Source of the DNA: Octopus vulgaris
Lineage: Eukaryota
Reading direction: 5' to 3'
DNA: 64,000 nt
Assembly: GCA_951406725.2 (NCBI GenBank)
Contig: OX597822.1
Span: 24,490,001-24,554,000 of the forward strand
Made by a program: the position numbers and the translations under genes. Positions 2,163 to 58,281 of the stretch are shown one piece after another. Under the pieces are notes generated by a model that searched no databases, was not told where the DNA came from, and saw only the letters and a program-made list of their open reading frames with translations. Every line of letters begins with the position of its first letter. The stretch's first letter is position 1.

Positions 2163-3700
2163 GTTGGAAACACCTAGCATCATAATTTTTAAATATCTAT
2201 AAAACTGTCAAATGCTTGTTTATTTTTATGTTTTTTTTATATATTATTAGTGTCGCTAAATATGGTTTGCTAAAATTGCTGTTTCTTTTCAGATATCATC
2301 AGAAAAAGGTAATTAAAATTCATAAAAATGACATATCTATCGGACATTCAAAGAGGTCAAATTGTTGGTGCTTGTATGACAGGCGATCGCATAATGAAAA
2401 CAGCCAAAATGTTTGGTGTATCAAGAAGTACTGTCTCAAAAGCAATGACAGCCTTTGAGAAAGAGGGAAAAACCTCATCGAATCAAAACTCTGGAAGAAA
2501 ACCAAAACTTTCAGATAAGGACTGTTGGATTCTTACGTGAATTGTTAGAAAGGATCACAAAAGTACAGCTCCCCAAATTACCGCAGGGCTTAATGACCAC
2601 CTCGAGAACCCAGTTTCCACAAAACTGTTTGCTGGGAGCTGCACAAAGCCAGATTTCACGGGAGGGCTGCAATCAGAAAACCACTGCTTTCAAAAACAAA
2701 CGTTGCAAAGCATTTAGAGTGGAATAAAAACTTACAGAATTGGTCCCTAGAACTGTGGAAGAATGTTATTTTATCGAATGAGTCATCCTTTACCTTAATT
2801 CTGACCAGCAGCTGAGTATATGTGTGGAGACAGCCAAAAGAAGCATTTGACCCAGACTGCCTTCTTCCAACTGTCAAACATGGAGGAGGATCTCTGATGA
2901 TCTGGGGGGGTTATATTTTGAAAATCTGCTGGCCCAATGGTTTCCCTTCATGGCAGAATTAATAGTCAAGACTATTTAAGCATTTTATCTGACCAAATTC
3001 ATCCTATGGTTGCAGAACTGTTTCCGGAGGGAAATGCAATCTTTCAGGATGATAATGCACCAATTCACACAGCTAAAGTTGTTACTGAATGGCATGAGGA
3101 ACATTCTAGCGAAGTTGAACATCTTATCTGACCACCAAAGTCCTCAGATCTCAATATTATTGAACATTTGTGGTGCATTTTAGGAACACAAGTAAGTAGT
3201 GGATATCCTCCACCATCATCACTACAAGAACTGGAGACTGTTTTAGCTGAAGAATAGACAAAATTTCCTTTGGAAACAATTAAACTTTGTACGAGTCTAT
3301 ACCTCATAGAATTCAAGCTGTAATTACTGCCAAAGGCGGTCCTGTCACACATTAAAATAAATTTGTTTGAAATTTTAAGGGGTTTCATTATTTGGTCCAA
3401 TCCCTGTATTTGTTTTTAAATGTCATAAATAAACATTCAACAAATGCTAAATACACAGACGAATGGAAAACACAGATATATATGTATGTATTTGTGTGTC
3501 TGTGTTTGTCCCCCTCCATCGCTTGACAACCGATGTTGGTGTGTTCACATCCACGTAACTTACTGGTTCGGCATAAAAGACCGATAGAATAAATACTAGT
3601 CTTACAAAGAGTAAGTCCTGGAGTTGATTAGTTCGACTAAAGGCGGTGCTCCAGCATGGCTGCAGTCAAATGACTGAAACAAGTAAAGGAGTAAAAGAGT
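1865..3700 (+). mobile_element. tRNA-derived SINE (family B) split by a Tc1 insertion in its internal microsatellite
   Basis: Head GTGGCTGTGTGGTAAG...GGTTCAGTCCC at 1865-2030; matching 3' half with (GTAAAAGA)n-like tail at 3480-3700. Confidence 0.75.
2161..3406 (+). mobile_element. Tc1-family DNA transposon with frameshifted transposase pseudogene
   Basis: Paired-like HTH (QRGQIVGA...TAKMFGVSRSTVS), FQDDNAPIH and SSDLNIIEH motifs of a DD34E-type enzyme; right TIR ends CCCTG|TA; left end lies in (TA)n. Confidence 0.92.
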
Positions 3701-5820: not shown

Positions 5821-8456
5821 AATAAGCAAAACATTTGACAAAGAAATCTACATGCTAAAGGGTTAATAAGGACAAAGTTATTCTATCAAATTTTTCATTT
5901 ATTTTAAAATTAATTGAAAGAAAGGGAATGTGTTTTATCAGAAAAATGGTTGTAAAAGGGTTAACACTTTTGATACCAACACACCTGAGATACCCTTGAT
6001 GCTGTAGTACAAATATACTGTTTGAAGGTGATGTAAATTAAAACCTTCTTCTGTCAAAATTTATTGTTAATTTATGTTTCAAACACTGGCTTAATAAAGA
6101 CTGAGTCATATTACTAACTTTTGCATCTTTGAAAATTAATTGAAGGCAAGACAATGTGTTTCAGATGGCAGCTTAGGCAAATGTCTTCTACTATAGCCTT
6201 GGGCCAACCAAAGCCTTGTGAGTGGATTTGGTAGATGGAAACTGAAAGAATCCCATCATATATATATATATATATATATATGTATATGTATATATCTATG
6301 TGTGTGTCTTTGTGTCCGTTCCTCCATCATCACTTGACAACTGGTGTTGGCGTATTTATGTCCCCATAGCATTGTTTTTAAAGCCTAGTGCTTATTCTAT
6401 TGGTCTCTTTTGCTAAACCAATAGGTCCCGGGGTCAAATTGTTTGACTAAAAACCCTTCGAGGCAGTACTCCAGCATGACCAGTCAAATGATTGAAACAA
6501 GTAAAAAAACATAAATAATGGTAACAAAATGGTTAAGGTATGGAGAATTATTAAATGGAAGCATAATTATCAAAGAGAGACACATGCTTAAAGATTTTGG
6601 CAATGCTTTCTATGTTTGGACACATGATATACATGTACCCCAATTTCATCATATACAGCTTACAGTTATGATATTCTGTATCATAACAAAAATTTATATT
6701 TTGATTCATGATGTGCAACAGAAGCAGTATTGGTTTAAAACAGGCATCAGTGTAACATACTTAATGCAGATACAGCATGGAAAGCCAGATTAAGTGTAGC
6801 ATTTGGTTGGAGATAATATTCCCTATGGATATACAGTACCAATTCTAGTGGATGTCTTTCATCTGCTTCTGATATATTTTTGTGTACCACAGCAGAATTG
6901 ATACTGGTGCCACATAAAAACACTTATGTTGGTGCCATGTTAAAAAGCACCCAGTACACTATGTGGAGTGGTTGGTGTTAGGAAGGGCATCCAGCTGTAG
7001 AAACCACACCAGAAGAGACAATGGAGCCTGGTACAGACACTGGCCTTACCAGCTCCGGTCAAACTGTCCAACCCATGCCAGCATGGAAAACAGTTGTTAA
7101 ATGATGAAGATGATGATGATGATTAACACTATATCTATAAGAGGTATTATCTCCTCTGGACAAATACAGAAGTTAATTTGGCTTTCTGTAATGTATCTGC
7201 TTTAAGTATGATACACAGATTGCAAAATTTTGAATTTCAGTTTCTATTTTTGACATTTTTTTTAGATATTAATTTTCGATATTTTTGAGGCACACCTGGT
7301 TACATATTGTGGCATCAGGAACCTCTGTTTTGGTGGGTTGTCACCTCTTTTTTAAAGTATCAAGTCTAAGGTGGCAAGCTGGCAGAATCGTTATCATGTT
7401 GAGCAAAATACTTAGTGGTACTTTGCCTGTCTTTAGGTTCCGAGTTCAAATTCTGTTGAGGTGAACTTTGCCTTTCATCCATTTGGGGTCGATAAATCAA
7501 GTACCAGTTGAATACTGGGGTTGATGTGATCGACTGTCTCCCACCCCACAAAATCCAGGCCTTGTGCCTATAGTAGAAATAATTATAAAGTATCGAGTCT
7601 GTCAGTCAGTCAGGGTTCATCCTTCCTTGTCTCTCGTAAAGGCAATATGAATTAAATGACTCATTAAGAAGTAAAACATGTGGCTTATTACTGATCAACA
7701 GCTGCACCTATACACACCATACATTTGAAAGTTTGATCCTTATAAGGTTATGACATGATAGTTTATCCTAAAAACAAAAAATTCTATAATTGATAACTCC
7801 ACATAAGTAAAAAGTGACAGATTCAAAAAACTCACTGAGAAGGCTACAGATGTGTAACAGAAAACTTTTATAGATCAATTATTTAAAGAAGTGAATTTCT
7901 ACCAGTGTGTGTATATTCATTGGCAGAATGACCTTTCACAGATTTATAAGGAAAAGCTGTAATCATTTGAAATGACCAAAGTATGTACCTGTCAACACCA
8001 CTATACCAGTCTGCAATATAGTCACATGGTCTTCTAGAAACAGCAACCAAATCTACCTCAAATCTGATTCTGCCATTAAAAAGAAAACAAAAACCCAAAC
8101 ATATTGGATAATTCCAAGCTTGTAATGCTGTGTTTGAATAAAATAGGTGATGGTCATGGTTGGATGATATTTCTTCAACAGTTTACTCAGTCATGGTTGA
8201 CATAGAATTAAAACAATTTCATTACTAATTATTGTAATATTTATGAAGGCACATGGCTTAGTGGTTAGGGTATTTGACCACTGATCATAAGGTTGTGAGT
8301 TTGATTCTTGGCAGTGCATTTTGCCCTTGAGCAAGACACTATATTTTATGTTACTCCAGTTCACTCAACTGGAAAAAACAAGTTGTACCTGTAATTCAAA
8401 AGGGCCGACCTTGTCACTTTTGGTGTTGCACCAAATCCCTCTGAGAACTACATTAA

Positions 8457-19987: not shown

Positions 19988-20648
19988 TACATGCATAAGC
20001 GCAGGCGTGGCTATGTGATAAGAAGTTTGCTTCCTAACTACATGGTTCCGGGTTCTGACCCATTGCATAGCTCCTTGCATTTACCTCCTCATGCCGTTAC
20101 TGCATTTTCCTCACCTTGGAGAAAAACTCCACGTGGAGCTACCGCCAAGCGTTTTGGTATAGACGTTTTGGCGTCGTTGATTCGACGCTGACTTGTTTGA
20201 CATCATATATTTTCATGTTCTCTCGTTTTAATGTCTCTCGTTCTCTCTCCTTTTTCTCTGTGTGTGAGCATATTTCTCTTTATGTATATGAGGAAAGGCA
20301 AAATGTTCAATTAATAAATGTTCCTCACATCTTTCCTATTTGCATGTACATGTTTCTGCGCGCGCGCGTTTCCTTTCTGTGCCAAAAACTACAGTCGCCC
20401 AAATAGGTTCAATGTCCAGTCAGCCGTGTCAAATCATCAGCGTCCAAACAGCCTCGCCCAGCTGTCTCATTCTGTACCAGATTATTCTCCCAATTCATGG
20501 CATCAATGAGTTTCGGATTAGGACACCCATATAAGTTGGGTTTTCTTCGTTTCGACGTGGATTTTTTTCAATTATTTTTTTTCACTACGCCTTTGGAAAT
20601 GATGGTGGGCAGCTTTTTATGAAAAAAGTTTTGAAAATCTATTATTTT

Positions 20649-21052
20649 ATTTACATTATTTACATTTGGCGGATATTTGTCCTCATCTGATATACCCTCC
20701 AGCCTTCGTCAGGTGTCTTGGGGAAATTTCGAACCTGGGTTCTCATTCCTAAGGTACTTTTCGATGTTGTTGTTATTATTATTGTTGTTGTTGTTGTTGT
20801 TATTGTCGTTGTTATTCAGGTCACTGCTTGGAATCGAACTCGGAATCTTGGGGTTAAGAGCGCGGGTTACTAACCCCAAGTTTCCGAGTTCGATTCCAAG
20901 CAATGATCTGAATAATAATAATAATAATAATAATCATAATAACGATAATAATAATAACGATAATAATAACAGTAATAATAATAATGATAATAATAACAAT
21001 AATAATAACAATAATAATAATAATAATGATAATAATAACGATAATAATAACG

Positions 21053-21104
<52 letters not shown>

Positions 21105-21318
21105 CAACAACAATAACAACAACAACAACAAGAATACCAAAAAATACCTTTGGAATGAGACCCTAGGTTCGAAATTTCTCCAAAACACCTGATGAAGGCT
21201 GGAGGGTATATCAGCCGAAACGTGGTGTTAACAACAAACAAGATGAGGACAAATATCCATCGAATGTAAATATTGTAAATAGCGTACATAATTCCTCATC
21301 TCTTCAATATAGAACTGT
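20649..21318. mobile_element. Inverted-dimer element with tRNA head, (AAT)n and hammerhead (locus 1)
   Basis: Two oppositely oriented arms; near-perfect 12-bp TSD ATCTATTATTTT (20637-20648) / ATCTATAATTTT (21319-21330). Confidence 0.85.
21184..21229 (+). ncRNA. Minimal type I hammerhead ribozyme motif (Penelope-like, palindromic stem III)
   Basis: AACAC-CTGATGA-A-GGCTG-(10 nt)-CAGCC-GAAA-CGT-G-GTGTT; stems I and II pair fully; N17 is G here and U in the sister copies. Confidence 0.75.
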
Positions 21319-21432
21319 ATCTATAATTTTGTTTACCGCTAGCCGTTACCTCCCACTACCGATTTTGGCGGGTTTTTTTTACACTATGCCCTTAAATACC
21401 ACAGGAAAAGCTTTTTCAGTAAAAGAAAATTT

Positions 21433-21847
21433 GGATCTTTTCGGTTTGAACGGCAGTTTTTTCTGGCGGTGTCATATGAAATTTTCACCCATAATTATGA
21501 CCCTAGTATAACCCTGTTTTAGGGTTAGTTAGGGTTAGAGTTATGGGGGGGGGGAAGGGTATCTTTTTTTCTTCAGAAATGTAAATAAACCCAATCTGTT
21601 TCTTAAACGAGGGACATATTCATACGGCACACAATGTTTTCACCTCAATAGACGTGCATTGATTGGTTGAAATTGCAGAAATTGAAGAAAAAAAACAAAA
21701 CAAATATCTTACAAACTATAGAATTTTCTCAACAAAGCCAAGAGAAAAAGATGTTTTATAAACACATTCTACCAGTATACAAAGTTTAAAAGTGTTTAGT
21801 TACGTGGAAATTATTTTAAAAAACTGCCCTTCAAACCGAAAAGATCC
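21433..21847 (-). mobile_element. MITE with GG..CC TIRs, 8-bp TSD and internal TTAGGG repeats (Merlin-like)
   Basis: TIR GGATCTTTTCGGTTTGAA; TSD GAAAATTT / GAAATTTT. Confidence 0.8.
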
Positions 21848-22320
21848 GAAATTTTTTGAAGATATTTTGAGACGAAAAGGTGTGAGATTTAAAAGCAATT
21901 TAATTGTTGTTTCTAGCATATACCACGAACACCTTCCCACTTTTTATGTTTTATCTTTTATTTCTTTCAGTCGTTGAACTGCAGCCATGCCGAGGCACTT
22001 CCTTGAAGAGTTTAGTCAAACAAATTTACATCGGTACCTTTTTTATTCTGTCGTTCCTTTCTGACGAACCGCTACGTAACGGGAACGTAAATAAGCCGGT
22101 TGCAATTGCGCGCGTGTGTGTGTGTGTAAGCACAAACACAAAGACACACATACATAATACATACAACGAGCTTCCGTACAGTTTCTGTCAACTAAATTCT
22201 CTCATAAGACGTTGGTCAGCCAGGGGCTATAGTAGAAGATACACAAAGTGCCGCGCTCTGGGACTGAACCTAAAACCACATGTTTGCAAAGCGAGCTTCT
22301 TAACCACACAGTCGTATATT

Positions 22321-24000: not shown

Positions 24001-25463
24001 TGTGAGGTGACGAGAACGGCTCTTTAGTACTCGATCACACGGCCTATACAATAAAGAGAAATCGAATTGAACAAATAAATGCCAGATGGGAAAGAAAGAC
24101 ACAGCCGCGTAAGAAAGATTAGAAGAATATTTATTGATATGTTAACATGTGTGTCTGTGTGTGTCATGTATACAGAATAATAGACAGGCCGCCATGAGAA
24201 CAGAATGTATGTGTGTGTGTAAGCATAGATGTATGCGCGTATTAAGAACATATAAGGATGGCAATGAAGAAGAGAGAGTGAAAGAGTCTATAGCCATCGA
24301 AGTGAGAAGTAAGTTCATAGACACAAGAACGATGACAATACCAGTTCGTAGTCATTAGTACACGGTAGTTGAAACACTGTATCAGGAAGTCGCGGCCATA
24401 ATGCTGAGCTGGATAAAGGTATATGTCGTACGCGAAGTCGTGGATGTGACGCTGCTGCCTAGGTCACTTGTACAAGAGTTGATACAGGTTGTATATTCAC
24501 TGTTGATCCATGGTGTAGTAATTCACCAACAGTGAAGTGTTGGAACCTGTGTGAATTGCTATGTACGTTGAGAGATGATGCTGACGACGTTAAGGACATG
24601 ATGGGGGCGACGAAGACGGAGGTTGCCGTAATGCTGTTGGACGAAGTTGGCAAGTGTCAACGTAGCTGCTGTGGTGGTGGTGGTGTTGTCTAGCGTTGTC
24701 GCTGAAACTGGCTGTGTCTTTGTGGTCAATGGCTAGACCTTAAAAGATCTGGAGCCAAAGACTCCGGAACGAGGAGAAGCTGGGTTTTTATAAGGAGCTG
24801 TAGGCTCAAAACAGTGTGGGGATCTTCTCGGTTTGAACGGCAGTTTTTAACATAATTTCCACATAACAAAACACTTTTAAATTTCGTATACTGGTAGAAT
24901 GTGTTTATAAAACATCTTTTTCTCTTGGCTTTATTGAGAAAATTCTATAGTTTGTAAGATATTTGATGTTTTTTTCTTCAATTTCTGCAATTTCAACCAA
25001 TCACTGACGTCTATTGGGATAAAAAACATTCTGTGCCGTATGAATATGTTCCTCGTTTAAGAAACAGATTGGGTTTATTTACATTTGTGAAGAAAAAAAA
25101 GATACCCTTCCCCCTAACCCTAACCCTAACCCTAAAACAGATTGAAATGCAATAGATCGATACTAGGGTCATAATTATGGGTGACAATTTCATATGACAC
25201 CGCTAGAAAAACTGCCATTCAAACCGAAAAGATCCCAGGGTGGTGAATAGTCTATCGAACGTGATCCTATTTAGAGATTCCGACTGGTTATACACGGCAA
25301 GTGACAGAGTAAGAGACAAATTGCGCCAATACCAACCAATCAGAGGTAGTGGAAACAACGGGACCCAAATAGCAGGCAAAGGCTAGCTATTCCCTGCTAT
25401 GTTCGAATGCACATATATATATAATAAATGGGAGAGAGGAATTTCATCCGAATCTACGCTACA
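24001..25463 (-). mobile_element. Solo-LTR-like repeat with a MITE nested at 24820-25235
   Basis: Starts TGTAGCG and probably ends CACCTCACA; CCAAT, TATA and AATAAA in LTR order; homologous copy at 51579-52560 (+); no TSD found. Confidence 0.65.
24820..25235 (+). mobile_element. Telomere-repeat MITE (copy 2)
   Basis: GGATC...GATCC TIRs; TSD CAGTGTGG / CAGGGTGG; (CCCTAA)4 at about 25112-25135. Confidence 0.85.
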
Positions 25464-28122: not shown

Positions 28123-28368
28123 ATATATATATAATCGGCCAGTAGTTCATAAATCCGAAAAGAAGCTCACTCTAAAACTTTAGAGCAGAAATACTTCAAA
28201 GGTTAATGTTTATGGCTGATCAGAGAGTGACCACTGGTTTGGCACCTGTAAGGTTATTAGCGGTATAGGTGACTTAGCTAGAAAGCCTAGGTACAATGAG
28301 ATTATCTGTCAAGCCTCAAGGAATTTTGAACGACTTGGAGCAATGAAGTTATCTTCTTTAGTATATTC

Positions 28369-28808
28369 GGATCTTTTCGGTTTGAAAGGCATTTTTAAAA
28401 AATAATTTCCACGTAACTAAACACTTTTAAACTTCGTATACTGGTAGAATGTGTTTATAAAACATCTTTTTCTCTTGGCTTTATTGAGAAAATTTTATAG
28501 TTTGTAAGATATTTGTTGTTTTTTCTTCAATTTCTGCAATTTCAACTAATCAATGACGTCTATTGAGGTAAAAAAACATTCTGTGCCGTATGAATATGTC
28601 CCTCGTTTAAGAAACAAATTAGGTTTATTTACATTTCTGAAGAAAAAAAGATACCCTTTCCCCCCACCCCTTACCCTAACTAACCCTAACTCTAACCCTA
28701 ACCCTAAAACAGATTGAAATGCAATAGATCGATACTAGGGTCATAATTATGGGTGACAATTTCATATGACACCGCAAGAAAAGACTGCCGTTTAAACCGA
28801 AAAGATCC
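28369..28808 (+). mobile_element. Telomere-repeat MITE (copy 3)
   Basis: GGATC...GATCC TIRs; TSD GTATATTC / GTACATTC; degenerate (CCCTAA)n at about 28668-28707. Confidence 0.85.
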
Positions 28809-29456: not shown

Positions 29457-30470
29457 CAGGGGTTTGACTAAATAATGGAAACACCTTAAAATTTCAAACA
29501 AATTAATTTTGATATGTGGTAGAACTGCCTTTGGCAGTAATTACAACTTGAATTCTACGAGTAATGGACTCGTACAAAGTTTGAATTGTTTCCAAACGAA
29601 GTTTTGTCCATTCTTCAGCTAAAATAGTCTCCAGTTCTTGGAATGATGATGGTGGAGGATATCGACGCCTTAATTGTTTTCTTAAAATGCACCATAAATG
29701 TTCAATAATATTGAGATCTGGGGACTGTGATGATCAGATACCATGTTCAACTTCACTAGAATGTTCCTCGTACCATTCAGTAACAACTTTAGCTGTGTGA
29801 ATTGGTGCATTATCATCCTGAAAGATTGCGTTTCCCTCCGGAAACAGTTCCGCAATCACAGGATGGATTTGATCAGATAAAATGCTTAAATAATCTTGAC
29901 TATTAATTCTGCCATGAAGAGAAACCATTTGGCCGGCAAATTTCTACGATATAACCCCCAGATCATCACAGATCTTCCTTCGTGTTTAACAGTTGGAAGA
30001 AGGCAGCTGGGCCAAATGTTTCTTTTGGCTGTCTCCACACGTATACTCGGCCGGTAGTCGGAAATAAGGAAAAGGATGACTCATCTGAGAAAATAACATT
30101 TTCCCACTGCTTTAGGGACCAATTCTGTAGGTTTGTAACATTTGTTTTTGAAAGTAGTGGTTTCTGTTTGCAGCCCTCCCGTGAAATCCGGCTTTGTGCA
30201 GCTCCTGGCAAACAGTTTTTGTGGGAGCTGGGTTCTCGATGTTGTCATTAAGCTCTGCAGTAATTATGGGAGCTATACTTTTGTGAGCCTTTCTAACAAT
30301 TCGTGTAAGAGTCCGACGGTCCCTATCTGAAAGTTTTGGCTTTCTCCCAGAGTTTTGTTTCGACGACGAGGAATTTCCCTCTTTGAAAGTCCGATAGATC
30401 TGTCATTTTAATGAATTTTAATTACTTTTTTCTGATGATATTTGAAAAGAAACAACTATTTTAACAATGC
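29457..30470 (-). mobile_element. Second, 5'-truncated copy of the same Tc1 family
   Basis: VIFSDESSF and FQDDNAPIH motifs; near-identical peptide to ORF 2937..3131; TIR CAGGGGTTTGACTAAATAATGGAAACACC next to TA. Confidence 0.92.
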
Positions 30471-34185: not shown

Positions 34186-34216
<31 letters not shown>

Positions 34217-34239
<23 letters not shown>

Positions 34240-34780
34240 GCCCTGATGCAATACCAGGCAGTGGCTCTCATGGCTTCTGGTCTTAACTGATTGTAAGTGT
34301 TATCATGTACATTGTTTTGTCTTGGTATAAAAGATGGGCTACAGCAAATATTCTGCTCAGTACCACAGATTTGCTTGTCAGTTGTTTGACTTTAACCAGT
34401 TGAGAATGTCCCTTGGTGGCTGATGATATGTGCATCTCTGATCTCAAACAGAAGTAGTGGGGGAGCATCATAGCCATGTATCGAGAGGAATTCTTTTGGC
34501 TTTGAATAATTAATATTGGAAGCATGGCTGTTTTGTTCATCATCTTTAAACAACCCTTATTCAGGGACATGTTGATGGGCTACTCGATCTGAATAAAATT
34601 CTAACTGGGTCCCACCTGCAAGGTTATGAGCTGTTTATCTTAATATGAGATCACCATGTCGCGCACATTTGGTTGTGATGCATGTGCTTGGAGTACCTTT
34701 ATCAGACGGGTAGTCGTGATGGGTATACTGGGCTTTGTGTATTTTACACCAGTGTCACTTTGGTAGCATGCATCGCTCTC
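34217..34780 (-). mobile_element. R4/Dong-like non-LTR element 3' end abutting (TAA)n
   Basis: Same 3' sequence at 44785-44907 (+), also ending in (TTA)n next to R4-type endonuclease remnants. Confidence 0.55.
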
Positions 34781-34859: not shown

Positions 34860-35715
34860 ATATTAGAAGGCAAGTTGTCTGTCTGTATGTTGCGTGAACC
34901 ACTCCTACAATTTTCAACCGAATTACACCAAATTTGACATGTGTGCTCTCTTTGAATTAAGACGCTTTTTCTTATAATTTTTTCCTCGAAATTCCGCGCC
35001 CCCAACATAAATAGACTACTCTCAATTCACCTATGATCTGGCTTCTGCCAGCGTAAAAACGTGGCACACACACAGCTGGAAAAATCAATACTTTACTTTG
35101 TCAGCTGTGGCAAGTTCTTATCGAGCTTGTTTATCGAGCAGTATATATTTTCGAGTTACGATTTGCCTCTGTTTTAACGTGAGCGCTCTTTTTCATATAA
35201 TCATTCCAACTTAAACTAGCCACTTCAAAACTCTTACCCAAAATTTAAAATCCTTAATTCGGTCTGTTTGATTAACATTTTTTGCCAATTACATTTTACT
35301 ATGTTTTATTAACTGACACTCCGTTACTGATCAATTAGAGGAATAACCTGCCCCCTCTCTGAACTTTGCCGTTCACCTTTTCGGGGTCTACCACACTCAC
35401 TGAAAAGGTAATTGATCCCTTCGTCTCTTTTCCTTATTTGTTGATCCGATCAACAGCACAACTTACTCTTGAAATTAACGTGAAAGTGGTGGATCACTCC
35501 ACAGACACTCGTATCCTTAACGTGGTTGTTAGGGAGATTCAGTGTAACACAGAATGTGACAAGACAGCCCTTTGAATTACAGATTTAACTTATTTTTGCC
35601 AACTTAGTGGACTGGAGCAATGCGAAATATAGTGTCTTGCTCAAGAACACAACACGCCGCCGGGAATCGAACTCACGACCTTACGATCGTGAGCTGATTG
35701 CCCTAACCACTCGGC

Positions 35716-36060
35716 CCTTTCTGAAATGGACAAAGGCCGAACTACAGATCTTGGACAGAACTAGAAAGCTGCTCACAATGCACAACGCACACCATCATAA
35801 ACACATTTTCGACAGGCTCTTTCTACAAAGAAAGGAACGGGTAAAGGATTATTAAAAAGAGAAGATGTCGTTAGTGCCGCGATATTGGGGTTGAAAAATT
35901 ATGCTGTGCGGAGCAAAGAAAGTCACAGATGCCCCAAACTTGATGAAAATCTGTAAGAATACAAAAAGAGAAGGAAGAACAATAGAGCAAGGGGGTGGAA
36001 AGAAATAGAATTGCATGACCAATTCATGTAACAAACCAAGAATATTGGAAATAAAGAAGC
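35716..36060 (+). mobile_element. R4/Dong-like RT-thumb remnant
   Basis: KWTKAELQILDR-TRKLLTMHNAHH...DRLFL.RKE motif; sister fragment at about 40510-40800. Confidence 0.6.
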
Positions 36061-37006: not shown

Positions 37007-37680
37007 TTATTTACATTCGACGGATATTTGCCGTTATCATGTTTGTTGTTAACACAACGTTTCGGCTGATAAACCCTCAAGCCTTCTTCAAGTGTCTTGG
37101 GGAAATTTCGAACCTGGGTTGTCGACCTGAGTTCAAATTCCGCCGAGGTCGACTTTGCCTTTCATCCTTTCGGGGTCGATAAATTATGTACCAGTTACGA
37201 ACTGGGGTCGATGTAATCGACTTAATCCGTGTGTCTGTCCTTGTTTGTCCCCTCTGTGTTTAGCCCCTTGTGGGTAGTAAAGAAATATATATTTAGTAGT
37301 AAAGAAATATATGGTTAGCGGTATTTCGTCTGTCGTTACGTTGTGAGTTCAAATTCCGCCGAGGTCGACTTTGCCTTTCATCCTTTCGGGGTCGATTAAA
37401 TAAGTACCAGTTACGCACTGGGGTCGATGTAATCGACTTAATACCTATGTCTGTCCTTGTTTGTCCCCTTTGTGTTTAGCCCCTTGTGGGTAATAAAGAA
37501 ATAGGTATTTTTCGATGTTATTATTATTATTATTGTTCAGGTCACTGCTTGGAATCGAACTCGGACTCTTGGGGTTAGTAGCCCGCGCACTTAACCACTT
37601 CGCCATATACCCACGCGCATATGGCGTGGTGGTTAAGAGCGTGGGCTATTAACAATAATAATAATAACAACAACACCCAC

Positions 37681-37741
<61 letters not shown>

Positions 37742-37932
37742 TCGAAAAATACCATAGGAACGAGAACCCAGGTTCGAAATTTTCCCAAGACACCTGATGA
37801 AGGCTGGAGGGTATATCAGCCAAAACGTTGTGTTAACAACAAACAAGATGAGGACAAATATCCGTCTAATGTAAATAACGTAAATAATGTAAATAATGTA
37901 CATAATTCCTCATCTCTTAAATATAGAACTGT
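37007..37932. mobile_element. Inverted-dimer element with tRNA head, (AAT)n and hammerhead (locus 2); SINE A multimer nested at about 37121-37505
   Basis: Perfect 13-bp TSD AGAAAGAGTGAGA (36994-37006 / 37933-37945); head-to-head tRNA-like heads centred near 37612; hammerhead motifs at 37051-37096 (-) and 37789-37834 (+). Confidence 0.88.
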
Positions 37933-39234
37933 AGAAAGAGTGAGAGACAAGCACTTTCCCTCTCTTCAAACAACTAAAGAAAAATACACTAATACACATA
38001 AACAGAGAGAGGGGGAAGAGAGAGAAAGGAGATGAAAGAGAGAAGAGAGAGAGGAGAGAAGTGGAAGCGGAGAGGAAGAGGAGAGAGCGGCGAGAGAGGG
38101 AGAGAGAAACACTAAAACATCTGATGTAAAATAAGCCAGCGTCGAATTAACAACGCGCCAAATAGACAACGCGAAAACGCCCGTGCCAAAACATTTCACA
38201 CCCAACAGAAACGAAAGAGTGAAGACTTGTTGCATAACCATTGCTCAATATTCAGGACAAAACACTAAATTGCCACATTTCAACAAATTCCTTTACTCAA
38301 CCTACAGTTCCTATTACCTTGAACTAATTTCATGCGTCGAGTATACTACGCTGTAAATGTCAAAAAGTTAGAGGTCTATATTAGTTCGCTGTGGTGTTGA
38401 AAGTTATATCTGTTACAGAGTATGAAGTACAGATCTCTAACATAATTAGGACATACACCAAAGTTCAGTTCTGTTTTATCTTGTATATATTTTGCCTACG
38501 TAATTTGAATAGACGGTAAATGTAGAACTTTCTCACTCTCTGTATGACATATCGGTCATTTAAGGAAGCAAGCCCCTGCTATAACGTTACACTGGATGAC
38601 ATCGATTTCGTTTCTAACATAAACTCTAATTTTCTTTTTTTTTTTATATTTTATGTATATCATATCGGTTTCCTGTTTCTCCGTTCTCGCTTTTTTTTCC
38701 TTCTTTTTTTTTATAGCTTCGCTAGTAGAGGAATGGCGATACCAATGACCTTTTCGCAGAAATTCCGAAACTGGAAAAGGGCAAGACAAAAAAAAAAAAA
38801 AGAAAAGAAAAGGTAAAAAAACAGAAAGAACATGACGAGTGGATCATCTATCCATTATTTTTTTATGCGCCCATTTCAAGCCTAACCAGGCTCATGGGTC
38901 CGTTTTCCCGGTTTCTGTGGCGTACGTGTTCTCTCCAGCTGGACGGGACACCAGTCCATCGCAGCGTTACTAAAGAAACAAGAAGAGAGAAAGCTGGGGC
39001 GAAAGAGTACAACAGGGGTTGCCACCAACCCCTGCCGAAGCCTCGTGGAGTTTTAGGTGTTTTCACTCAATAAACACACACAACGCCCGGTCTTGGAATG
39101 GAAACCACGATCCTACGACCGCGAGTCCGCTGCCCTAACCACTGGGCCATTGCGCCTCCACTATCTAGCCATACACGATCTAAATATTTTCAACGGAATG
39201 CTTTTCCTTCGAGTTTTATTATCAAGACTCATAT

Positions 39235-40799: not shown

Positions 40800-41600
40800 T
40801 GTCAAACACCTGCTGTCGCGTGTGGGAATCCGGCTACCAGCCGAATCCATTGTGAAGATTGCCCTGCCGCTCTCTTTTGGCCGGGAGGCGCAGGCAATTT
40901 TTATGTCTAGTGGCTGTAGCGAAAGAGGTAGTATATGGGCGACCCGTTTGAAAGTGCTAAAGACAGACACTTTTCTCTTTGGCCAAGCCCTCACCAACTT
41001 TTTCAAGTTTCACTTGAAAAGGAAGCTGAGGATGGAGAGGGGAGTGTTGCCTTGTAGCAAGTTTACATTATTTACATTTGACGGATATTTGTCCTCATCC
41101 ATCAAATGTAAATAATATAAACAATATATCCTCTGTGTGAAAAGTCTGGCTGCATACAATTGACAGCACAGTTAATTAAGATTTATTTAGTGAGTTCTAT
41201 TCAACACATGTTTACATGTGAAATTAGCAGAATCATTATTAACTTTAGATGGCTCGCAGGCGAGGTGAACAAATTAGTGAGAGAGATAGACTGGCAATAC
41301 TTCTACGCCACCAGCAGTCTTGGGAAGAGCTATCTGAGCGGAAAATTCGTTGATGTATTCAACGTCAAACTCGTGTTCGGCGTCAAATAGTTGACTGTCG
41401 TGGTGGTAACAGATTCGTGTAATAAATTTTGTGTTTATCTTTGTTTCTTAATATATATTTTTTCGGATGCAGCCAGACTTTTCACACAGGTACATAATTC
41501 CTCATCTTTTAAATATAGAATTGTAGCAAGTTTGTTGAAAGATAGGTGAATGTTGGAAGAATGACCAGTGTGAAAGGACCAATTCTGAGCGTGCACCTGT
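40800..41600 (+). mobile_element. Tx1/L1-like ORF2 C-terminal remnant, interrupted at 41065-41520
   Basis: W.TRLK...FFKFHLKRKLRMER..L...KF|VER* resumes after the insertion. Confidence 0.55.
41065..41520. mobile_element. Collapsed copy of the inverted-dimer element (locus 3) with a TA-type MITE (about 41130-41490) inside
   Basis: TTGTAGCAAGTTT repeated at 41052-41064 and 41521-41533; both termini of the family retained; MITE TIR CTGTGTGAAAAGTCTGGCTGCAT. Confidence 0.8.
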
Positions 41601-44194: not shown

Positions 44195-44785
44195 TATTCT
44201 ATGTTTGACTTTTGCTTTACATTTGTACAAGTTGGCTCCAAGTCTCACCCAAAGACCTCAAGAGACAAAAAGTTGGGAGTTCATGTTGGTGTTATGCCTA
44301 GTGTGCCATATATTTGGTTTTATACTTAGTGTTGTACTAGTGAATGTCTAAAAAACCATACGAAAATTATGTTTGTTTTAAAACTTGAGATTATATAGAA
44401 AGTATTTTGCGTAGGATATGAGCAGTTCCCATGAGCACTATCTTTTGAATTTCTGCCATTTTTGGGTTTCCTGGTCTCTGAGTTAGGTAGCAATCACCCC
44501 CTTTTGCTATCATTCCCAGGGCACCTATGACAACAGGTATTATTTTAGTCTTCAGGTTCCACATTTTGCTGATTTCTATTTCAAGATCTTTATATTTGCT
44601 CAGTTTTTGGTAGATCTTGACAGATACGTTTATATCGATTGGGACAGTCATATCAATGAGGAGGCATGTTCTTTGTCTGAAGTCTTTCAATATGATGTCT
44701 GGCCTATTTGCATCTATCTTTCTGTCAGTTTGAATGGCGAAGTTCCAGAGGAGTGAGATGTGGTCATTTTCAAGTACTGGAAAAT
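44195..44785 (-). mobile_element. R4/Dong-clade restriction-like endonuclease domain and 3' UTR
   Basis: LLWNFAIQTDRKIDANRPDII...CLLIDMTVP...KLSKYKDLEIEISKMW...IPVVIGALG. Confidence 0.85.
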
Positions 44786-44904
44786 TGATCAGAATATTTG
44801 CAGTAGGCCATTTTTATACCAAGACAAAACAAAGTACATGATAACACTTCCAATCAGTTAAGATGAGATGCCATGAAAACCACTGCCTGGTACTGCATCA
44901 GGGC

Positions 44905-47590: not shown

Positions 47591-47699
47591 AGTATTAATA
47601 TATATATAATTACATATAATACAATATACATGTAATGCCACGATATTATGTAAGCTGTTATCAATCTGTACTGTCAATAAACGACTGAGTTAAATATTT

Positions 47700-48635
47700 T
47701 TGTGACATTTTTCTGTGACTTTTTTCTTGTAACTTTTTTCCTGTGACTTTTTCTGTGACTTTTTTCTTGTGACTTTTTTCTGTGACTTTTTCCTGTGACT
47801 TTTTCCTGTGACTTTTTTCTGTCACTTTTTTCTATGACTTTCTTCTGTGACTTTTTTCTGTGACTTTTTTCTTGTGACTTTTCTCTGTAACTTTTTTCTT
47901 GTGACTTTTTTCTGTTACTATTTTCTTGTGACTTTTTTCTTGTGACTCTTTTCTGTTACTTTTATCTTGTGACTTTTTCCTGTGACTTTTTTCTATGACT
48001 TTTTTCTGTGACTTTTTTCTGTGACTTTTTTCTTGTGACTTTATTCTGTGACTTTCTTCTGTGATTTTTTTCTTTGACTTTTTCTGTGACTTTTTTCTGT
48101 GCCTTTTTTCTGTGACTTTTTTCCTGTGACTTTTTTCTGTGACTTTTATCTGTGACTTATTTCTGTGTCTTTTTCCTGTGACTTTTTTCTGTGACTTTTT
48201 CTGTGACTTTTTTCTTGTAACTTTTTTGTGTGACTTTTTTATGTGATTTTTTCCTGTGACTTTTTCTTGTGACTTTTTTCTGTGACTTTTTGTGACTTTT
48301 TTCTGTGAACTTTTCTGTGACTTTTTTCTGTGACTTTTTTCTCTGACTTTTTTCTTCTGACTATTTTCCTAAAACTTTATTCTGTGACCTTTTTCTTGTG
48401 ACTTTTTTCTGTGACTTTTTCCTGTGACTTTTTTCTGTGACTTTTTTCTTCTGACTATTTTCCTAAAACTTTATTTTGTGACCTTTTTCTTGTGACTTTT
48501 TTCTGTGACTTTTTCCTGTGACTTTTTTCTGTGACTTTTTTGTTGTGACTTTTTCGTGTGACTTTATTGCCAGCCACCATAAATTAATTGTGACATTTTT
48601 TCCTGTGACTTTTTTCTGTGACTTTTTTCCTGTAA
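47700..48635. repeat. Minisatellite of about 13-14 bp units (TGTGACTTTTTTC[C/T])
   Basis: About 930 bp of degenerate tandem units directly 3' of the MULE ORF. Confidence 0.95.
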
Positions 48636-52560: not shown

Positions 52561-54063
52561 TACTCACAAAGCTTTGGTCGGCCCGGAGCTATAGTTAAGG
52601 ACATTTATCCAAGGTGCACGCAATGGGACTGAACCCGGAACCATGTGGTTGACAAGCAAACTTCTTACTACGCAGCCTATACTTACATTTTAGACACATT
52701 TAAGAAAAGAAATTCGTCATGCAACAAAATTAGTGGGAAAACTAGCCGAGTGTTCATGTCGTTTTACGCAATCATAAAACTATGACCACCTACCAAATGG
52801 TTTGTTGCTCATTACCTTAACTGTCCTGAGATTCTCAGATAGCATCATGGAAGGCGTATTGTCATTATCAAGTTATTTTCTTTTTTTGACAAAAACGTGT
52901 TGGTGCTACTTTAGCGTGCGGTCTTGAAATCATTTTTACCGTGCGGTCTACCTTTCCTTACCCTCTTAACCCGAGTTAATTTTTACCGTTACAATGTTGT
53001 TAAAGGATTTCTATAGACGTATAATTTTACAGAGGCTATTGAGAGATCAAGGTTGGATTCCAAAACGACTATTTTAAAGAAAATGGGAGGCATTAGTAGT
53101 GAGCTTTTCCAGTCTTTGATCACTTTTGCTGGAAAGTTTCGGGAAAAGATACAGCAGATTTGATTGTGGCATTCCTAAATGACGTACGAAGCATGTATCG
53201 TTAATTAAGATTTAATTGTAAGTTATTAATAAATCATTACTCAACATTAATCAATTTGTTTTTATCATCCTGTTGTATAAAGTTCTTATAGTGGAGGTAG
53301 ATCGCACGCTAAAATGTAAAAGGGTAAGAAAAGGTAGACCACACGCTAAAAGTAATTTCACAGCATAGACAGAATACTGCGGTAGACCACACGCTAAAGT
53401 AGGATACTGCGATAGACAGTACGCTAAAGAAGGCACGAAGACGTTTCCTATGGTCGGTATCACTCCAAAAGCCACAATGAATGCTTTTATGTTATGCAGT
53501 AACTCTGTGGTTGGAAGTGAGGAAATCGTGTTCGCATTATAATTTCGCTGGAACCTTGTATTATATTGGTGGAAATAATTTGCTATGAGCTAACTTGATT
53601 AATTTGACAAATAATGCTTGTTAACGATGTTTATTTTTTAGCTGACAATTGATAATTTTTGCATGCGTCATTATTTTAGCAAACAATTAAGGCCCTAGAA
53701 TATGATAACAGCAGAAGTATACACCGTGTAATCGAAAGTATATGGAAACATCTGAAGAATGGTTTCATTAACTTCAACTACAAGGAAAGGCATGTGTTTC
53801 TGATGCGTGTGTTGTGGAACCTAAAGTCGGGGAAAGTACATGACTATCTTCGTAACGTTTACCATGAACATGACGAGGTGAAATTTCGGAAATTGGAATG
53901 TATTTTAAAAATTCGGCAAGCCAGTGCATGTTTACTCATCTTAGAACATTGCATATCTCATGTTAGTTAGTTAGTTAGTTAATTTGGCTCAAAAGCAAAT
54001 AGCAAGGCCATGTAGGGGGACATGGAGTTAAGTACAGGGTGGTGTTCATGTAAAGAGTTCAGG

Positions 54064-56934
54064 TCACTTGAGGTCAAGGGAGGCTTTGAACAAAGCGGTC
54101 GTCGGCATCTTCACCATCTCGTCTGGCAGCTTGTTCCACGGATCCGCAACCCGGACAGAGGAAGCTCCTCTCCTTCGATTGAGATGAAATCGTCGCAGGT
54201 AGAGCTTTTCGGAATGACCCCGCAGTCGACACCCTGGAGCAGGAGTGAAGAACAGCTCTTTCGAGAGGTTACACTTTCCGCTTATGATGTTGTGGGCGAG
54301 AATGAGATCACCACGGCGGCGGCGTTTTTCAAGAGAATAAAGGTCGAGCATCCTCAGCCTTTCTTCGTATGACAAATTTTTGAGACCATGAACCATGCGG
54401 GTAGCCAGCTTCTGGACTTTTTCGAGATGCTGTATGTCTTTGAGGAGGTAAGGAGAAGAGGCTTGAATCCCGTACTCCAATATGGGTCTCACCAGCGTGA
54501 CATAGAGTGGTAGGAATATGGCTGCTGAGAGCATTCCGAATGACCGTCGAATCAAGAACAGAATTCTGCGTGCTTTGTTGGCAGCATGGACGCACTGGGC
54601 CGAAGGCGAAAAGGAGGAATCCACCAAGATACCCAGGTCCTTTACCTGATCGGTCCTCTCCAGCAGCAGACGACCCGGCTCGAAATCAAGTTGAGTTGCA
54701 GGAGGAGAGCCGACAGGCAGATGACAGCACTTTGACACGTTCAGACACAGATCCCATTCGTTAGACCACTTCCAAATTTGGTGGAGGCATCGACGAAGAT
54801 CCTCTATATCACCGCGAGGAGCGACCAGTTTGATATCGTCGGCAAATAGAAGGGTGTGTTGCGTGAGGTCGTTGGGCAAGTCATTTATGAAGACTAAGAA
54901 CAATAAGGGCCCAAGCACTGAACCTTGAGGCACGCCACTGCTCGCACTGGAGACGTCGGACCGCGAACCATTAACTTGGACTTGGAAGGAGCGATCTGAG
55001 AGGAAGGCACCAACCCATCGTACAATATCCGGATGGAAACTATATGCTTGAAGCTTTACAAGTAATAGGCGGTGGCTTACCGAGTCAAAAGCTTTGGCAA
55101 AGTCCAGTAAAACGATGTCAACAGCATCACTAACATCGAGGATGCGCGTCACCAATTCTTCCATTACTAGTAAGTTGGTCAAGCATGATCTCTTCGGCAC
55201 GAAGCCGTGTTGGGAATCAGAGATAGAGGCTGTGTTTAGGAGGTGGAGCATCATACTTTTCTTAAGGATGGTTTCGAATATCTTGCTGATTATTGATGTA
55301 AGGGAAACCGGTCGGTAGTTAAGCGGGTCTTCGCGGCTCCCTTTCTTGAAAATTGGGCAGATTATCGCTGTTCTCCAGTCTGCAGGTATAACACCCGTCG
55401 CCAATGATATATTGAATAGACGTGTTAAGGGCTCGCAAATGACCGGAGCCAACGCTTTGATAACCCGTGGGTGTATGCCGTCAGGGCCGTGACCCTTGTT
55501 GACATCGAGGCCTTGAATAACACGTTTGACTTCGTCCCGCGTGATGACCAATCGAAGCATTGGAGATACCGATCTATCAAATGGAGGGGGTTCACGACCA
55601 TCATCTTGTTTGAAAATAGTTGAAAAAGCCTCGGCAAATAATTGACTCTGTTGATAAGGGTCCTCAATCGATACGCCTGTTGAGTCTACCAACGTTGCAA
55701 TCTGGTTGTTCAAGCGGGAATTCCGTTGGACATGGGCAAAGAAGGTTTTTGGATTGCTACTGGCATTTGCCGCGATTTTGTATTCATAACTGAAGCGTTC
55801 TTCCTTTTCAATTTTCACGGCTCGGTCTCGTTGAGTTTTGTACACCTCAAAAGCTGCAGTCGAATCCAGATTTTTTAATTCAGCCCAAGCAATATCTCTG
55901 AGTCGACGTTCTTGTTTAACCTTCTTCGTCACCCAGGGCTTGTGTTTCTTCTTCTTGGGAAGCCCAACGGGAACTGCCTGGTCAGTCAACCAGATTACAT
56001 ATGCTTTGAGGGATGACCATAGTTCGTCAACTGAGGACAACGTCATCAGGGATCGCCAGTCCAGAAGCGCGGAAGCCTCGGTTAGAATTTCAAGATTAAT
56101 TGCAGAGAAGACTCTACGTGGCAGCGAAGTAGTCGTGGGCGTAGAAAAAGTTGTGTGCATGACGAACTTCAGGACCGCATGATCACTCTTGGCAAGAGGG
56201 GCGCACACAGATACGTCTGACACTGATCTTGGATAGCGGGAGAATACCAGATCTAGCATAGATGGCTGCTGCCCAGACCGATGCCTTGTCGGATATTCAA
56301 CATGTTGCGATAGAAAACAATCTTCAGCCACGTCGAGAAGGGCCTGGCCGAACCGGGAAGATGTTGTACAAATTGATGCGGGCCAATCGATCGTGGGAGC
56401 GTTGAAGTCTCCTAGTACCAAACAGTCATGCGAAGCTGAAACGAATCTTATCGCTTCGAGTAAATGAGCATCGTCCTGGGGGTCGGCAAGAGGCGGCCTG
56501 TAGACAGCTAACACGGGCAGGCAAAACTCGGATAGGCTCAGCTTGCAATAGACGGCATCGAATTTTGTTGTAGGTTGAGCATTAGTGGGTAGAATACCGC
56601 TGGACGGTTTGTGCTCAGACTTAACATACACAGCAACACCTCCACCTCGCCTTTTTCCTCTGTCACATCTGAAAAGGACGTAGCCCTGCAGGTGGATTTC
56701 TGAGTCCTTTACTGCTAGAGTCAGCCAAGTCTCGGTGATAGCTATCACATCAGGGGAGTCACGTATGGCCAGTGTAAATAGTTCGCTGAACTTTGGGAAT
56801 AAGGAGCACGAGTTGGTATAGACGATGCTGAGCTGTGAAGTCTGAGGGGCGGGAGTTGGGGAACAAGCAGAATAAGGGGTATCAGAGATAGCATCGTTGA
56901 CGGGGGTATCAACTTCACTTCGATTTGCCCTCAC
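54064..56934 (-). CDS. LINE ORF2: apurinic-like endonuclease plus reverse transcriptase
   Basis: APE motifs IAITETWL, GGGVAVYV, LGDFNAP, LDLVF and SDH; RT motifs NYRPVSLTS, QHGF, LDFAKAFD, GVPQGSVLGP and FADD; 956 uninterrupted codons; no ATG before the end of the EN domain. Confidence 0.95.
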   Translation of the reverse strand: MRANRSEVDTPVNDAISDTPYSACSPTPAPQTSQLSIVYTNSCSLFPKFSELFTLAIRDSPDVIAITETWLTLAVKDSEIHLQGYVLFRCDRGKRRGGGVAVYVKSEHKPSSGILPTNAQPTTKFDAVYCKLSLSEFCLPVLAVYRPPLADPQDDAHLLEAIRFVSASHDCLVLGDFNAPTIDWPASICTTSSRFGQALLDVAEDCFLSQHVEYPTRHRSGQQPSMLDLVFSRYPRSVSDVSVCAPLAKSDHAVLKFVMHTTFSTPTTTSLPRRVFSAINLEILTEASALLDWRSLMTLSSVDELWSSLKAYVIWLTDQAVPVGLPKKKKHKPWVTKKVKQERRLRDIAWAELKNLDSTAAFEVYKTQRDRAVKIEKEERFSYEYKIAANASSNPKTFFAHVQRNSRLNNQIATLVDSTGVSIEDPYQQSQLFAEAFSTIFKQDDGREPPPFDRSVSPMLRLVITRDEVKRVIQGLDVNKGHGPDGIHPRVIKALAPVICEPLTRLFNISLATGVIPADWRTAIICPIFKKGSREDPLNYRPVSLTSIISKIFETILKKSMMLHLLNTASISDSQHGFVPKRSCLTNLLVMEELVTRILDVSDAVDIVLLDFAKAFDSVSHRLLLVKLQAYSFHPDIVRWVGAFLSDRSFQVQVNGSRSDVSSASSGVPQGSVLGPLLFLVFINDLPNDLTQHTLLFADDIKLVAPRGDIEDLRRCLHQIWKWSNEWDLCLNVSKCCHLPVGSPPATQLDFEPGRLLLERTDQVKDLGILVDSSFSPSAQCVHAANKARRILFLIRRSFGMLSAAIFLPLYVTLVRPILEYGIQASSPYLLKDIQHLEKVQKLATRMVHGLKNLSYEERLRMLDLYSLEKRRRRGDLILAHNIISGKCNLSKELFFTPAPGCRLRGHSEKLYLRRFHLNRRRGASSVRVADPWNKLPDEMVKMPTTALFKASLDLK

Positions 56935-58103: not shown

Positions 58104-58281
58104 GATAGATGGTTGACTAAAAGCAATCTTCTATGGGCTCTAGGACAAATCTGAGTTAAATCAGGAACAAAAAACAGCTGCAATCCTTGTAGGAGTAGGC
58201 AACAGCAGACAAAATCTGAGAGAGTTTGGGCTGAGCCGAATCACAATCCAGCAATACAGGGCACAGAAAGGAAGGGCCCTC

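What the first reader, a model, noticed from the sequence alone, without database searches (positions are those of the whole stretch)
21184..21229. Loop-less, palindromic stem III hammerhead that could only fold as a dimer
Seen: after G12-A13-A14 the sequence is A-C-G-U, so positions 15.2 and 16.2 are adjacent with no loop, but ACGU is self-complementary. There is also an extra A between A9 and stem II. Each copy in the window has a different lesion (G at N17 here, G12A at 37822, C3U and a stem II mismatch in the 37051-37096 copy, deletion near 20688), so the consensus is complete. Established: minimal PLE hammerheads with palindromic stem III are reported to cleave better as dimers. Inference: the two divergent transcripts of one locus could supply both partners in trans.
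Basis: partly seen in the sequence, partly recalled or inferred. Interest (0 to 1): 0.7.

Follow-up and report, generated by a model that had tools for sequence, protein, structure and literature searches.

The report
Octopus hammerhead in tRNA-headed Penelope-type repeat
This is a decayed copy of a well-known minimal self-cutting RNA motif of Penelope-type jumping genes; the less ordinary part is its carrier, a short octopus repeat that starts with a tRNA-like promoter and seems to be copied around the genome by Penelope enzymes.

Summary
The motif is real: a type I minimal hammerhead at 21184-21229 (+) with loop-less ACGU, an extra A before stem II and G at N17. All four copies and their lesions are as described. 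The architecture is already published for Penelope-like elements (PLEs): 29 of 56 representative motifs in PMC4209133 Fig. S3 have the same GAAA-CG-U-H core, and opposite-strand pairs 100-700 bp apart are described there. The idea that the two divergent arms supply each other's partner fails here: the opposite arm has lost GAAACGU, and neither arm keeps a full A box. The inverted layout is a PLE integration footprint: three insertions in the window, each with a 13-18 nt target duplication and a ~38-nt tail on one arm only. The family matches Octopus sequences. Going beyond the finding, all four long arms begin with a tRNA-like head (A/B boxes), then (AAT)n, the hammerhead and a PLE-type 3' end; a diverged sister family seems to share the head. 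Best reading: dead copies of a short, SINE-like element mobilised by PLE enzymes. I did not find that combination in print, but no autonomous partner or transcript was shown and Repbase/Dfam could not be checked.

The parts
21184..21229 (+). Minimal type I hammerhead, locus A right arm; core intact, N17 = G (21224), so a poor substrate but a formally intact 'enzyme' strand
   Evidence: NUH rule in PMC6908138 passages
20637..20654 (+). Target-site duplication, locus A left (18 nt, 2 mismatches)
21319..21336 (+). Target-site duplication, locus A right
20655..20851 (-). Locus A left (inverted) arm: partial tRNA-like head with B box (20830-20840), short AAT/AAC repeat, body, hammerhead remnant 20687-20717 with 28-nt deletion, 3' end without tail
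20852..20911 (+). Locus A right arm tRNA-like head, 5'-truncated inside the A box; B box at 20887-20897
20912..21132 (+). (AAT)n/(AAC)n microsatellite inside the element, length differs among arms
21133..21183 (+). Conserved body ahead of the ribozyme, with a second B-box-like word 23 nt before C3
21230..21280 (+). AC-rich then AT-rich 3' region; the three left arms end at the equivalent of about 21273-21280
21281..21318 (+). About 38-nt tail present only on right arms; predicted to pair back on the pre-tail region in a 9-bp helix
   Evidence: PLE tail in PMC8557442 and PMC11167929
36994..37006 (+). Target-site duplication, locus B left (13 nt, perfect)
37007..37124 (-). Locus B left arm 3' part with hammerhead 37051-37096 (C3U, one stem II mismatch, U17), no tail
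37503..37618 (-). Locus B left arm full tRNA-like head: A box from 37605, B box from 37561, 32 nt apart, then short (AAT)n
37618..37932 (+). Locus B right arm: A box half of the head (B box deleted), (AAT)n, body with T4, hammerhead 37789-37834 (G12A, U17), 3' end with tail
37933..37945 (+). Target-site duplication, locus B right
41052..41533 (.). Locus C: third inverted insertion, both arms cut short before the ribozyme; 13-nt duplications at 41052 and 41521; tail on the right arm only; interrupted by a small DNA-transposon-like element

Best explanation
The motif is a neutrally decaying copy of the minimal hammerhead that PLEs carry near their 3' end. It sits in a short non-autonomous Octopus retroelement (about 280 nt plus a variable microsatellite): tRNA-derived Pol III head, (AAT)n, hammerhead, PLE-type 3' recognition region. 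Steps: (1) master copies are transcribed from the internal A/B boxes (inferred); (2) a PLE reverse transcriptase/GIY-YIG protein binds the 3' region, nicks both strands of an AT-rich target 13-18 nt apart and primes cDNA from both nicks at two start sites about 38 nt apart (inferred from the Anolis PLE biochemistry; the footprint is shown here three times); (3) the two cDNAs join head to head, giving an inverted pair with the tail on one arm (footprint shown). The ribozyme cannot close stem III alone; two RNAs must swap strands, one giving CUGANGA, stem II and GAAA, the other giving GUH and the 3' strand of stem I (published model). It is probably slow and protein-assisted, and since the insertions span the cleavage site, uncut RNA is the template (shown by the sequence). 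The 21184 copy, with G17 and no full promoter, is most likely silent.
For: Same core, extra nucleotide 9.1, long stem II and short stem I as published PLE min-hammerheads. Target duplications at 3 of 3 loci, scores 12, 13, 13; 1 of 150 random zone pairs reached 12. Tail on the right arm only at 3 of 3 loci, the PLE signature. Substitutions no rarer in the 11 core positions (2 of 39 cells) than in flanks (23 of 343). The head is present in 4 of 4 arms long enough to reach it and, at E below 0.05, nowhere else in the window; both arms of locus B begin within 10 nt of the head's start. A+B box pair exact in the B-left head; 4 such pairs in 100 Markov windows. Best of 6 phage-collection matches of the head is a tRNA gene (E 0.02), colinear, 43 of 74 identical. 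Frame-translation of the element hits Octopus sinensis and O. bimaculoides proteins. In spurious ORFs over sister families the match ends are bimodal, 50 of 133 at profile 53-56 and 61 of 133 at 64-70, i.e. without and with tail; 103 of 110 ribozyme-spanning peptides need U at N17 and none shows the Gly of the 21184 copy; stem II pair 4 reads C-G there against U-A here, a double change inferred from codons; two proteins carry an upstream stretch matching this head (P0082, P0139: 0 of 300 shuffles each).
Against: No autonomous PLE sharing this 3' end was found: no RT/GIY-YIG ORF among 11 window ORFs scanned except an APE-type LINE, none among the 150 listed of 829 profile hits (longest 195 aa), nothing in GTDB. 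Rfam and ARAGORN do not call the head a tRNA. The head-in-sisters result rests on 2 (plus 1 marginal, 7 of 300) of 19 upstream stretches tested, and default BLASTP did not recover it. Only two loci reach the head. No transcript or cleavage data. No covariation among the window copies.
Confidence: 0.65

Rival explanations
1. The copies are ordinary 5'-truncated ends (pLTR) of an autonomous PLE whose 3' untranslated region happens to hold an old tRNA-SINE insertion; the structured head stalls the reverse transcriptase, so copies end there.
For: PLE copies are mostly 5'-truncated with an inverted partner (PMC8557442; PMC4209133). Locus C and both arms of A are truncated. Penelope families are abundant and some recently active in Octopus vulgaris (PMC13282606 passages).
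Against: 4 of 4 long arms stop inside or at the start of an 80-nt head and none goes beyond; the two B arms leave only 10 nt between them. By eye, the stretches ahead of the head differ among sister-family proteins P0013, P0058, P0094 and P0139.
Confidence: 0.25
2. One reading: the head-to-head pair is a functional unit whose two divergent transcripts dimerise through ACGU and cleave each other, with lesions complementing in trans.
For: Both loci have divergent heads. In a strand-swapped dimer the 21184 copy could serve as enzyme for a GUU strand. Published family representatives exist with U3 plus G8 (Saccoglossus 1) and with G17 (S. mansoni 3), so these lesions need not be null. B-left has both boxes and no T4 run over 612 nt.
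Against: The A-left arm lacks the palindrome; 3 of 4 arms lack one promoter box; locus C has the same inversion with no ribozyme; no sign of selection on the core. For 46-mers the swapped dimer scores -21.1 kcal/mol against -15.6 for each monomer and -35.2 for an inactive alternative dimer (ViennaRNA does not model the core). A read-through RNA buries the ribozyme in an arm-arm duplex.
Confidence: 0.05
3. The element is a non-LTR retrozyme or Sm-alpha-like satellite: tandem master arrays self-cleave to unit RNAs or circles that are reverse transcribed.
For: 6 of 149 sister-family proteins show two or more ribozyme peptides in tandem units of 38-43 residues. Retrozymes are proposed to be PLE derivatives (10.64898/2026.07.22.740005; PMC7229834).
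Against: No tandem unit in the window (0 of 3 loci). Ends fall at the head and at the two tail positions, not at the cleavage site. Retrozymes in PMC7229834 carry canonical type I motifs, set apart from the minimal ones. The tandem peptides belong to other subfamilies and fit PLE partial tandems equally well.
Confidence: 0.05

Closest known systems
Minimal hammerheads of metazoan Penelope-like elements (Cervera and De la Pena 2014, PMC4209133; Lunse et al. 2017, not held, known here from its title and the review PMC6765202)
   Same: CUGANGA-H-G core, nucleotide between 9 and 10.1, stem II of 5-6 bp with G10.1-C11.1, stem I of 5 bp, palindromic 15.2-16.2 without loop (29 of 56 rows of Fig. S3 have CG as here, by my count), opposite-strand pairs 100-700 bp apart, mostly isolated truncated copies.
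   Different: No Octopus example in the supplement file searched; not linked here to a PLE ORF; preceded by a tRNA-like head.
EN+ PLE insertions (Penelope/Poseidon, Neptune; Anolis PAc, PMC11167929; structure in PMC8557442)
   Same: Inverted 5'-truncated partner, 30-40-nt tail on one end only, AT-rich targets, ends 50-100 nt downstream of the cleavage site, uncut RNA inserted.
   Different: No RT or GIY-YIG coding; about 300-500 nt per arm; apparent internal Pol III promoter; clear 13-18 nt target duplications.
Schistosome Sm-alpha / Sj-alpha SINE-like elements (via PMC6765202 and PMC8490949 passages)
   Same: Pol III-type promoter upstream of a type I hammerhead in a short non-autonomous repeat.
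   Different: Sm-alpha is described as tandem and released by cleavage from multimers, with a canonical ribozyme; here single or inverted arms, a minimal ribozyme and a PLE tail and inversion footprint.
Non-LTR retrozymes and other non-autonomous PLE derivatives (PMC7229834; 10.64898/2026.07.22.740005; MRC1 in PMC8557442; short non-autonomous Penelope in 10.1101/596502)
   Same: Short, non-coding, hammerhead-bearing or pLTR-derived, proposed to use PLE enzymes.
   Different: Defined by head-to-tail tandems; no tRNA head mentioned in the parts I read.
tRNA-derived SINEs and the tRNA-bearing TRIM Helenus (PMC10886601)
   Same: tRNA-derived A/B-box head used to make the template RNA of a non-autonomous element.
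   Different: Their partners are LINEs or LTR elements; here the 3' end and footprint point to a PLE.

Membership tests
PLE-type minimal type I hammerhead | CUGANGA and GAAA core flanking stem II, closed by stem I | tested here: met
   Exact in 21184 copy; 0 hits in 100 controls
PLE-type minimal type I hammerhead | Extra nucleotide between 9 and 10.1, G10.1-C11.1 pair, palindromic 15.2-16.2 | tested here: met
   against PMC4209133
PLE-type minimal type I hammerhead | H (not G) at position 17 | tested here: not met
   G in this copy; U in the other 2 window arms that keep the site; 103 of 110 sister peptides need U. The family meets it, this copy does not.
PLE-type minimal type I hammerhead | Covariation in stems I/II | tested here: inconclusive
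   0 of 11 pairs among window arms; one U-A versus C-G double change against sister families, inferred from peptides
PLE-type minimal type I hammerhead | Self-cleavage as a dimer | not testable with these tools
   needs bench assay
Penelope-like element (autonomous) | ORF with telomerase-like RT and GIY-YIG endonuclease | tested here: not met
   None within or next to the three insertions; none in the 150 listed profile hits
PLE-mobilised element | Inverted 5'-truncated partner and 30-40-nt tail on one end only | tested here: met
   3 of 3 loci; bimodal ends in sister peptides
PLE-mobilised element | 3' end shared with an autonomous PLE of the same genome | not testable with these tools
   No animal genome collection; supplement motif searches negative
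tRNA-derived SINE | 5' head with A and B boxes at tRNA spacing | tested here: met
   Both boxes in 1 of 4 arms, B box in 3 of 4, A box in 2 of 4; colinear with a tRNA gene. No Rfam or ARAGORN call.
tRNA-derived SINE | Element begins at the head; short, dispersed, flanked by target duplications | tested here: inconclusive
   Duplications met; 5' boundary rests on two loci
tRNA-derived SINE | Transcription by RNA polymerase III | not testable with these tools
   no RNA data
Non-LTR retrozyme | Head-to-tail tandem units each with a hammerhead | tested here: not met
   0 of 3 window loci; tandems only in 6 of 149 sister proteins

The most novel reading that the evidence does not exclude
A class of tRNA-derived SINEs whose autonomous partner is a Penelope-like element rather than a LINE: a Pol III head fused to the PLE hammerhead and 3' recognition region, abundant in Octopus and present as diverged sister families. 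The dimer-only ribozyme would be what lets a monomeric Pol III RNA survive uncut, and the ~95 nt from cleavage site to tail end would mark the minimal cis-element for PLE trans-mobilisation.
Probability: 0.35. Interest if true: 0.6.

Novelty: new variant of a known kind. Interest (0 to 1): 0.38.

Why it matters
The ribozyme itself changes nothing: it is the commonest published form of the PLE minimal hammerhead. If the carrier is what it looks like, it extends the SINE strategy (tRNA promoter plus borrowed 3' end) to a third class of retroelement enzymes. It would also give a short natural substrate, with many genomic copies, for the open questions of how PLEs recognise their RNA, why insertions are inverted and tailed, and what the ribozyme is for.

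Tried and rejected
Rfam scans gave no hammerhead or tRNA family, only microsatellite or hairpin matches to miRNA models. ARAGORN found no tRNA at default or, on the head alone, at a lowered threshold; at a lowered threshold on the window it listed 32 loose calls, not used. The GTDB scan with the frame-translation found 599 pattern matches, none confirmed. A second A+B box pair at 35717 and its relative at 8255 belong to another SINE body, not to this family. A weak nhmmer match at 53851-53942 (E 0.045) showed nothing by eye. The open frame through the ribozyme was considered as the N-terminus of a PLE protein: all listed hits are short or embedded in unrelated gene models, so I treat it as spurious. 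Motif searches in supplements of PMC13282606 (1 small file, no repeat library) and PMC8557442 found no exact match. BLASTP of P0082 against the translated head gave no meaningful match. Source names for the sister-family proteins could not be obtained, so their taxa stay unknown. Lunse et al. 2017 is not held.

Full report
Observation. Window 21184-21229 (+) is a type I hammerhead with a 5-bp stem I, CUGAUGA, one extra A, a 5-bp stem II extended by a G-U pair, GAA, ACGU and G at position 17. The fourth arm, 20687-20717 (-), has a 28-nt deletion. Rfam has no model that matches. In the lowest-energy fold of this copy G17 pairs with C3 and extends stem I; hammerheads cleave after NUH, and GUG is called non-cleaving in PMC6908138 (passages).

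The motif is known. PMC4209133 (main text parts 1-2 of 4; supplement file 2 parts 1-2 of 3; file 1 could not be searched) defines the minimal hammerhead without helix III or loop 3. It lists the extra nucleotide between 9 and 10.1, the G10.1-C11.1 pair and the palindromic 15.2-16.2, reports opposite-strand pairs 100-700 bp apart, and finds no cleavage for a monomer and low cleavage for dimers and trimers. By my count 29 of the 56 rows of its Fig. S3 have CG at 15.2-16.2 with no loop, as here. The review PMC6765202 (passages) gives the same dimer model and cites Lunse et al., which I could not read.

Surroundings. The window is animal DNA rich in microsatellites and SINEs. A frame-translation of the element hits O. 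sinensis and O. bimaculoides gene models (91% over 54% of the query; 78% over 89%), so the host is most likely an Octopus; the species was not determined. The family occurs at three loci. Each is one insertion: a left arm on the minus strand and a right arm on the plus strand, head to head, between direct repeats of 18, 13 and 13 nt that abut the element ends; 1 of 150 random zone pairs scored as high. At 3 of 3 loci the right arm runs about 38 nt further than the left. An inverted truncated partner and a 30-40-nt tail at one end are the standard PLE footprint (PMC8557442 passages). PMC11167929 (parts 1-2 of 4) shows for the Anolis PLE that both target strands are cut and extended and that the tail lies between two internal start sites of reverse transcription. 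It also shows that the hammerhead needs the protein and is dispensable for insertion. Here the insertions span the cleavage site, so uncut RNA was the template.

The trans-partner idea. The arm opposite 21184 has no GAAACGU, N17 or 3' strand of stem I, so it cannot be a partner. Both arms of locus A start after the first half of the A box; B-right has lost the B box and has a T4 run; B-left is split by another SINE. Locus C shows the same inversion with no ribozyme at all. Core positions are not better kept than flanks (2 of 39 against 23 of 343 cells), arms within a locus are no closer than arms between loci, and there is no compensatory change among the four arms. A read-through RNA of either locus pairs the ribozyme with its own antisense arm. 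In favour of the idea: a swapped dimer lets one strand give the core and the other the cleavage site, so lesions could complement, and Fig. S3 has family representatives with U3/G8 and with G17.

The carrier. All four arms long enough to get there run, 5' to 3': a head of about 80 nt, (AAT)n of variable length, a 50-nt body, the ribozyme and the 3' region. The B-left head has an A box and a B box 32 nt apart (box patterns recalled); such pairs occurred 4 times in 100 control windows. Its best match among 6 in the phage collection is a tRNA gene (E 0.02), colinear from D loop to T loop, 43 of 74 identical (the shuffle control is not independent, since the gene was picked as best hit). Rfam and ARAGORN do not call it. 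The two B arms begin within 10 nt of each other at the head's start; the A arms stop inside it; none passes it. The head was not found apart from the body in the window.

Relatives seen through spurious ORFs. A profile of the frame-translation hit 829 proteins at E up to 0.001; the 150 listed are at most 195 aa long and 679 were not seen. Their sources are unnamed and their taxa unknown. Of 133 matches followed by at least 5 more residues, 50 end at profile positions 53-56 and 61 at 64-70, with 10 between and 12 earlier: the tail and no-tail ends again. Among 110 ribozyme-spanning peptides in 105 of 149 proteins, the residue whose codon starts at N17 is C 92, Y 5, F 4, S 4, W 2, R 2, D 1 and never Gly, so G17 is private to the 21184 copy. 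The two residues that cover stem II pair 4 are mostly R, decaying to both W and Q on each side, which points to CGG codons and a C-G pair; the window arms have U-A. This is one compensatory change, inferred, not read from DNA. Of 19 upstream stretches tested, 2 match the translated head (0 of 300 shuffles each) and 1 marginally (7 of 300); several of the rest hold only linker, another frame or, by eye, an inverted arm. Default BLASTP missed the match. Six proteins show tandem ribozyme units.

Mechanism and rivals. Most likely (0.65) these are dead copies of a short tRNA-headed element copied by PLE enzymes through twin priming at both target nicks. The main rival (0.25) is a long PLE whose copies stall at an embedded tRNA-like hairpin. 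A functional divergent pair (0.05) and a retrozyme-type cycle (0.05) fit worse. Shown: motif, lesions, duplications, one-sided tail, promoter boxes. Inferred: Pol III transcription, the PLE partner, dimer cleavage.

Novelty. The finding as written is already known. For the carrier, searches (listings and abstracts) and passages of PMC13282606, PMC8967140, PMC10886601, PMC7229834, PMC6155905, PMC8490949, PMC3899998, PMC4918200 and 10.1101/596502, plus parts 1-3 of 5 of 10.64898/2026.07.22.740005 (supplements not seen), turned up no tRNA-headed element with a PLE footprint. The nearest are Sm-alpha, retrozymes and Helenus. Repeat databases and subscription papers, including the 1994 octopus SINE paper, were out of reach, so the family may already have a name. 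I score it a new variant of a known kind on account of the carrier, interest 0.38.

Noticed in passing
window 41133-41489: About 360-nt element with perfect 23-nt terminal inverted repeats, inserted in the 3' end of locus C next to a TA; MITE-like, Tc1/mariner label recalled, not tested.
   Followed up: partly
window 37127-37502: Two tandem pieces of the window's commonest SINE (more than 15 copies, e.g. 18466, 32095, 36244, 45486) interrupt the B-left arm between head and ribozyme.
   Followed up: partly
window 54064-57195 (-) and 56931-58130 (-): Uninterrupted 1043-aa frame with APE endonuclease and RT domains, with a 399-aa frame upstream, in a 48% GC island: a young-looking LINE.
   Followed up: partly
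window 21161-21170 and the same place in the other three arms: A second B-box-like word lies 23 nt before C3; an inverted-arm peptide in sister proteins suggests the same word there. It may be the remnant of an older promoter.
   Followed up: no
window 21242-21302: The pre-tail region and the tail are predicted to form a 9-bp helix around the AT-rich stretch where left arms end; a candidate recognition stem-loop.
   Followed up: partly
window 20655-21318 and 37007-37932: Read-through RNA of either insertion folds into a long duplex (about -286 and -366 kcal/mol); a possible A-to-I editing or small-RNA substrate (cephalopod editing recalled).
   Followed up: no
proteins P0002, P0004, P0005: Octopus gene models, one named dystrobrevin beta, begin with or consist of a translation of this repeat: misannotation or exonisation.
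   Followed up: no
proteins P0034, P0068, P0081, P0084, P0086, P0097: Tandem units of 38-43 residues, each with the ribozyme peptide: head-to-tail hammerhead arrays in related families, where dimers could form in cis.
   Followed up: partly
window 35600-35720 (-) and 8255-8403 (+): Another tRNA-headed SINE family with a different body.
   Followed up: partly
window 44391-44813 (-): 140-aa frame resembling the restriction-like endonuclease end of an R4/Dong-type element (label recalled; Pfam gave only a sub-threshold match); its flank is repeated in inverted form at 34189-34332.
   Followed up: no
window 47667-48475: Minisatellite of 13-14-nt T-rich units, more than 60 copies.
   Followed up: no
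window 2475-3386 with 29478-30366; 21687-21850 with 24844-24979 and 28366-28527: Further dispersed repeats in inverted orientation at 82-94% identity, unclassified.
   Followed up: no
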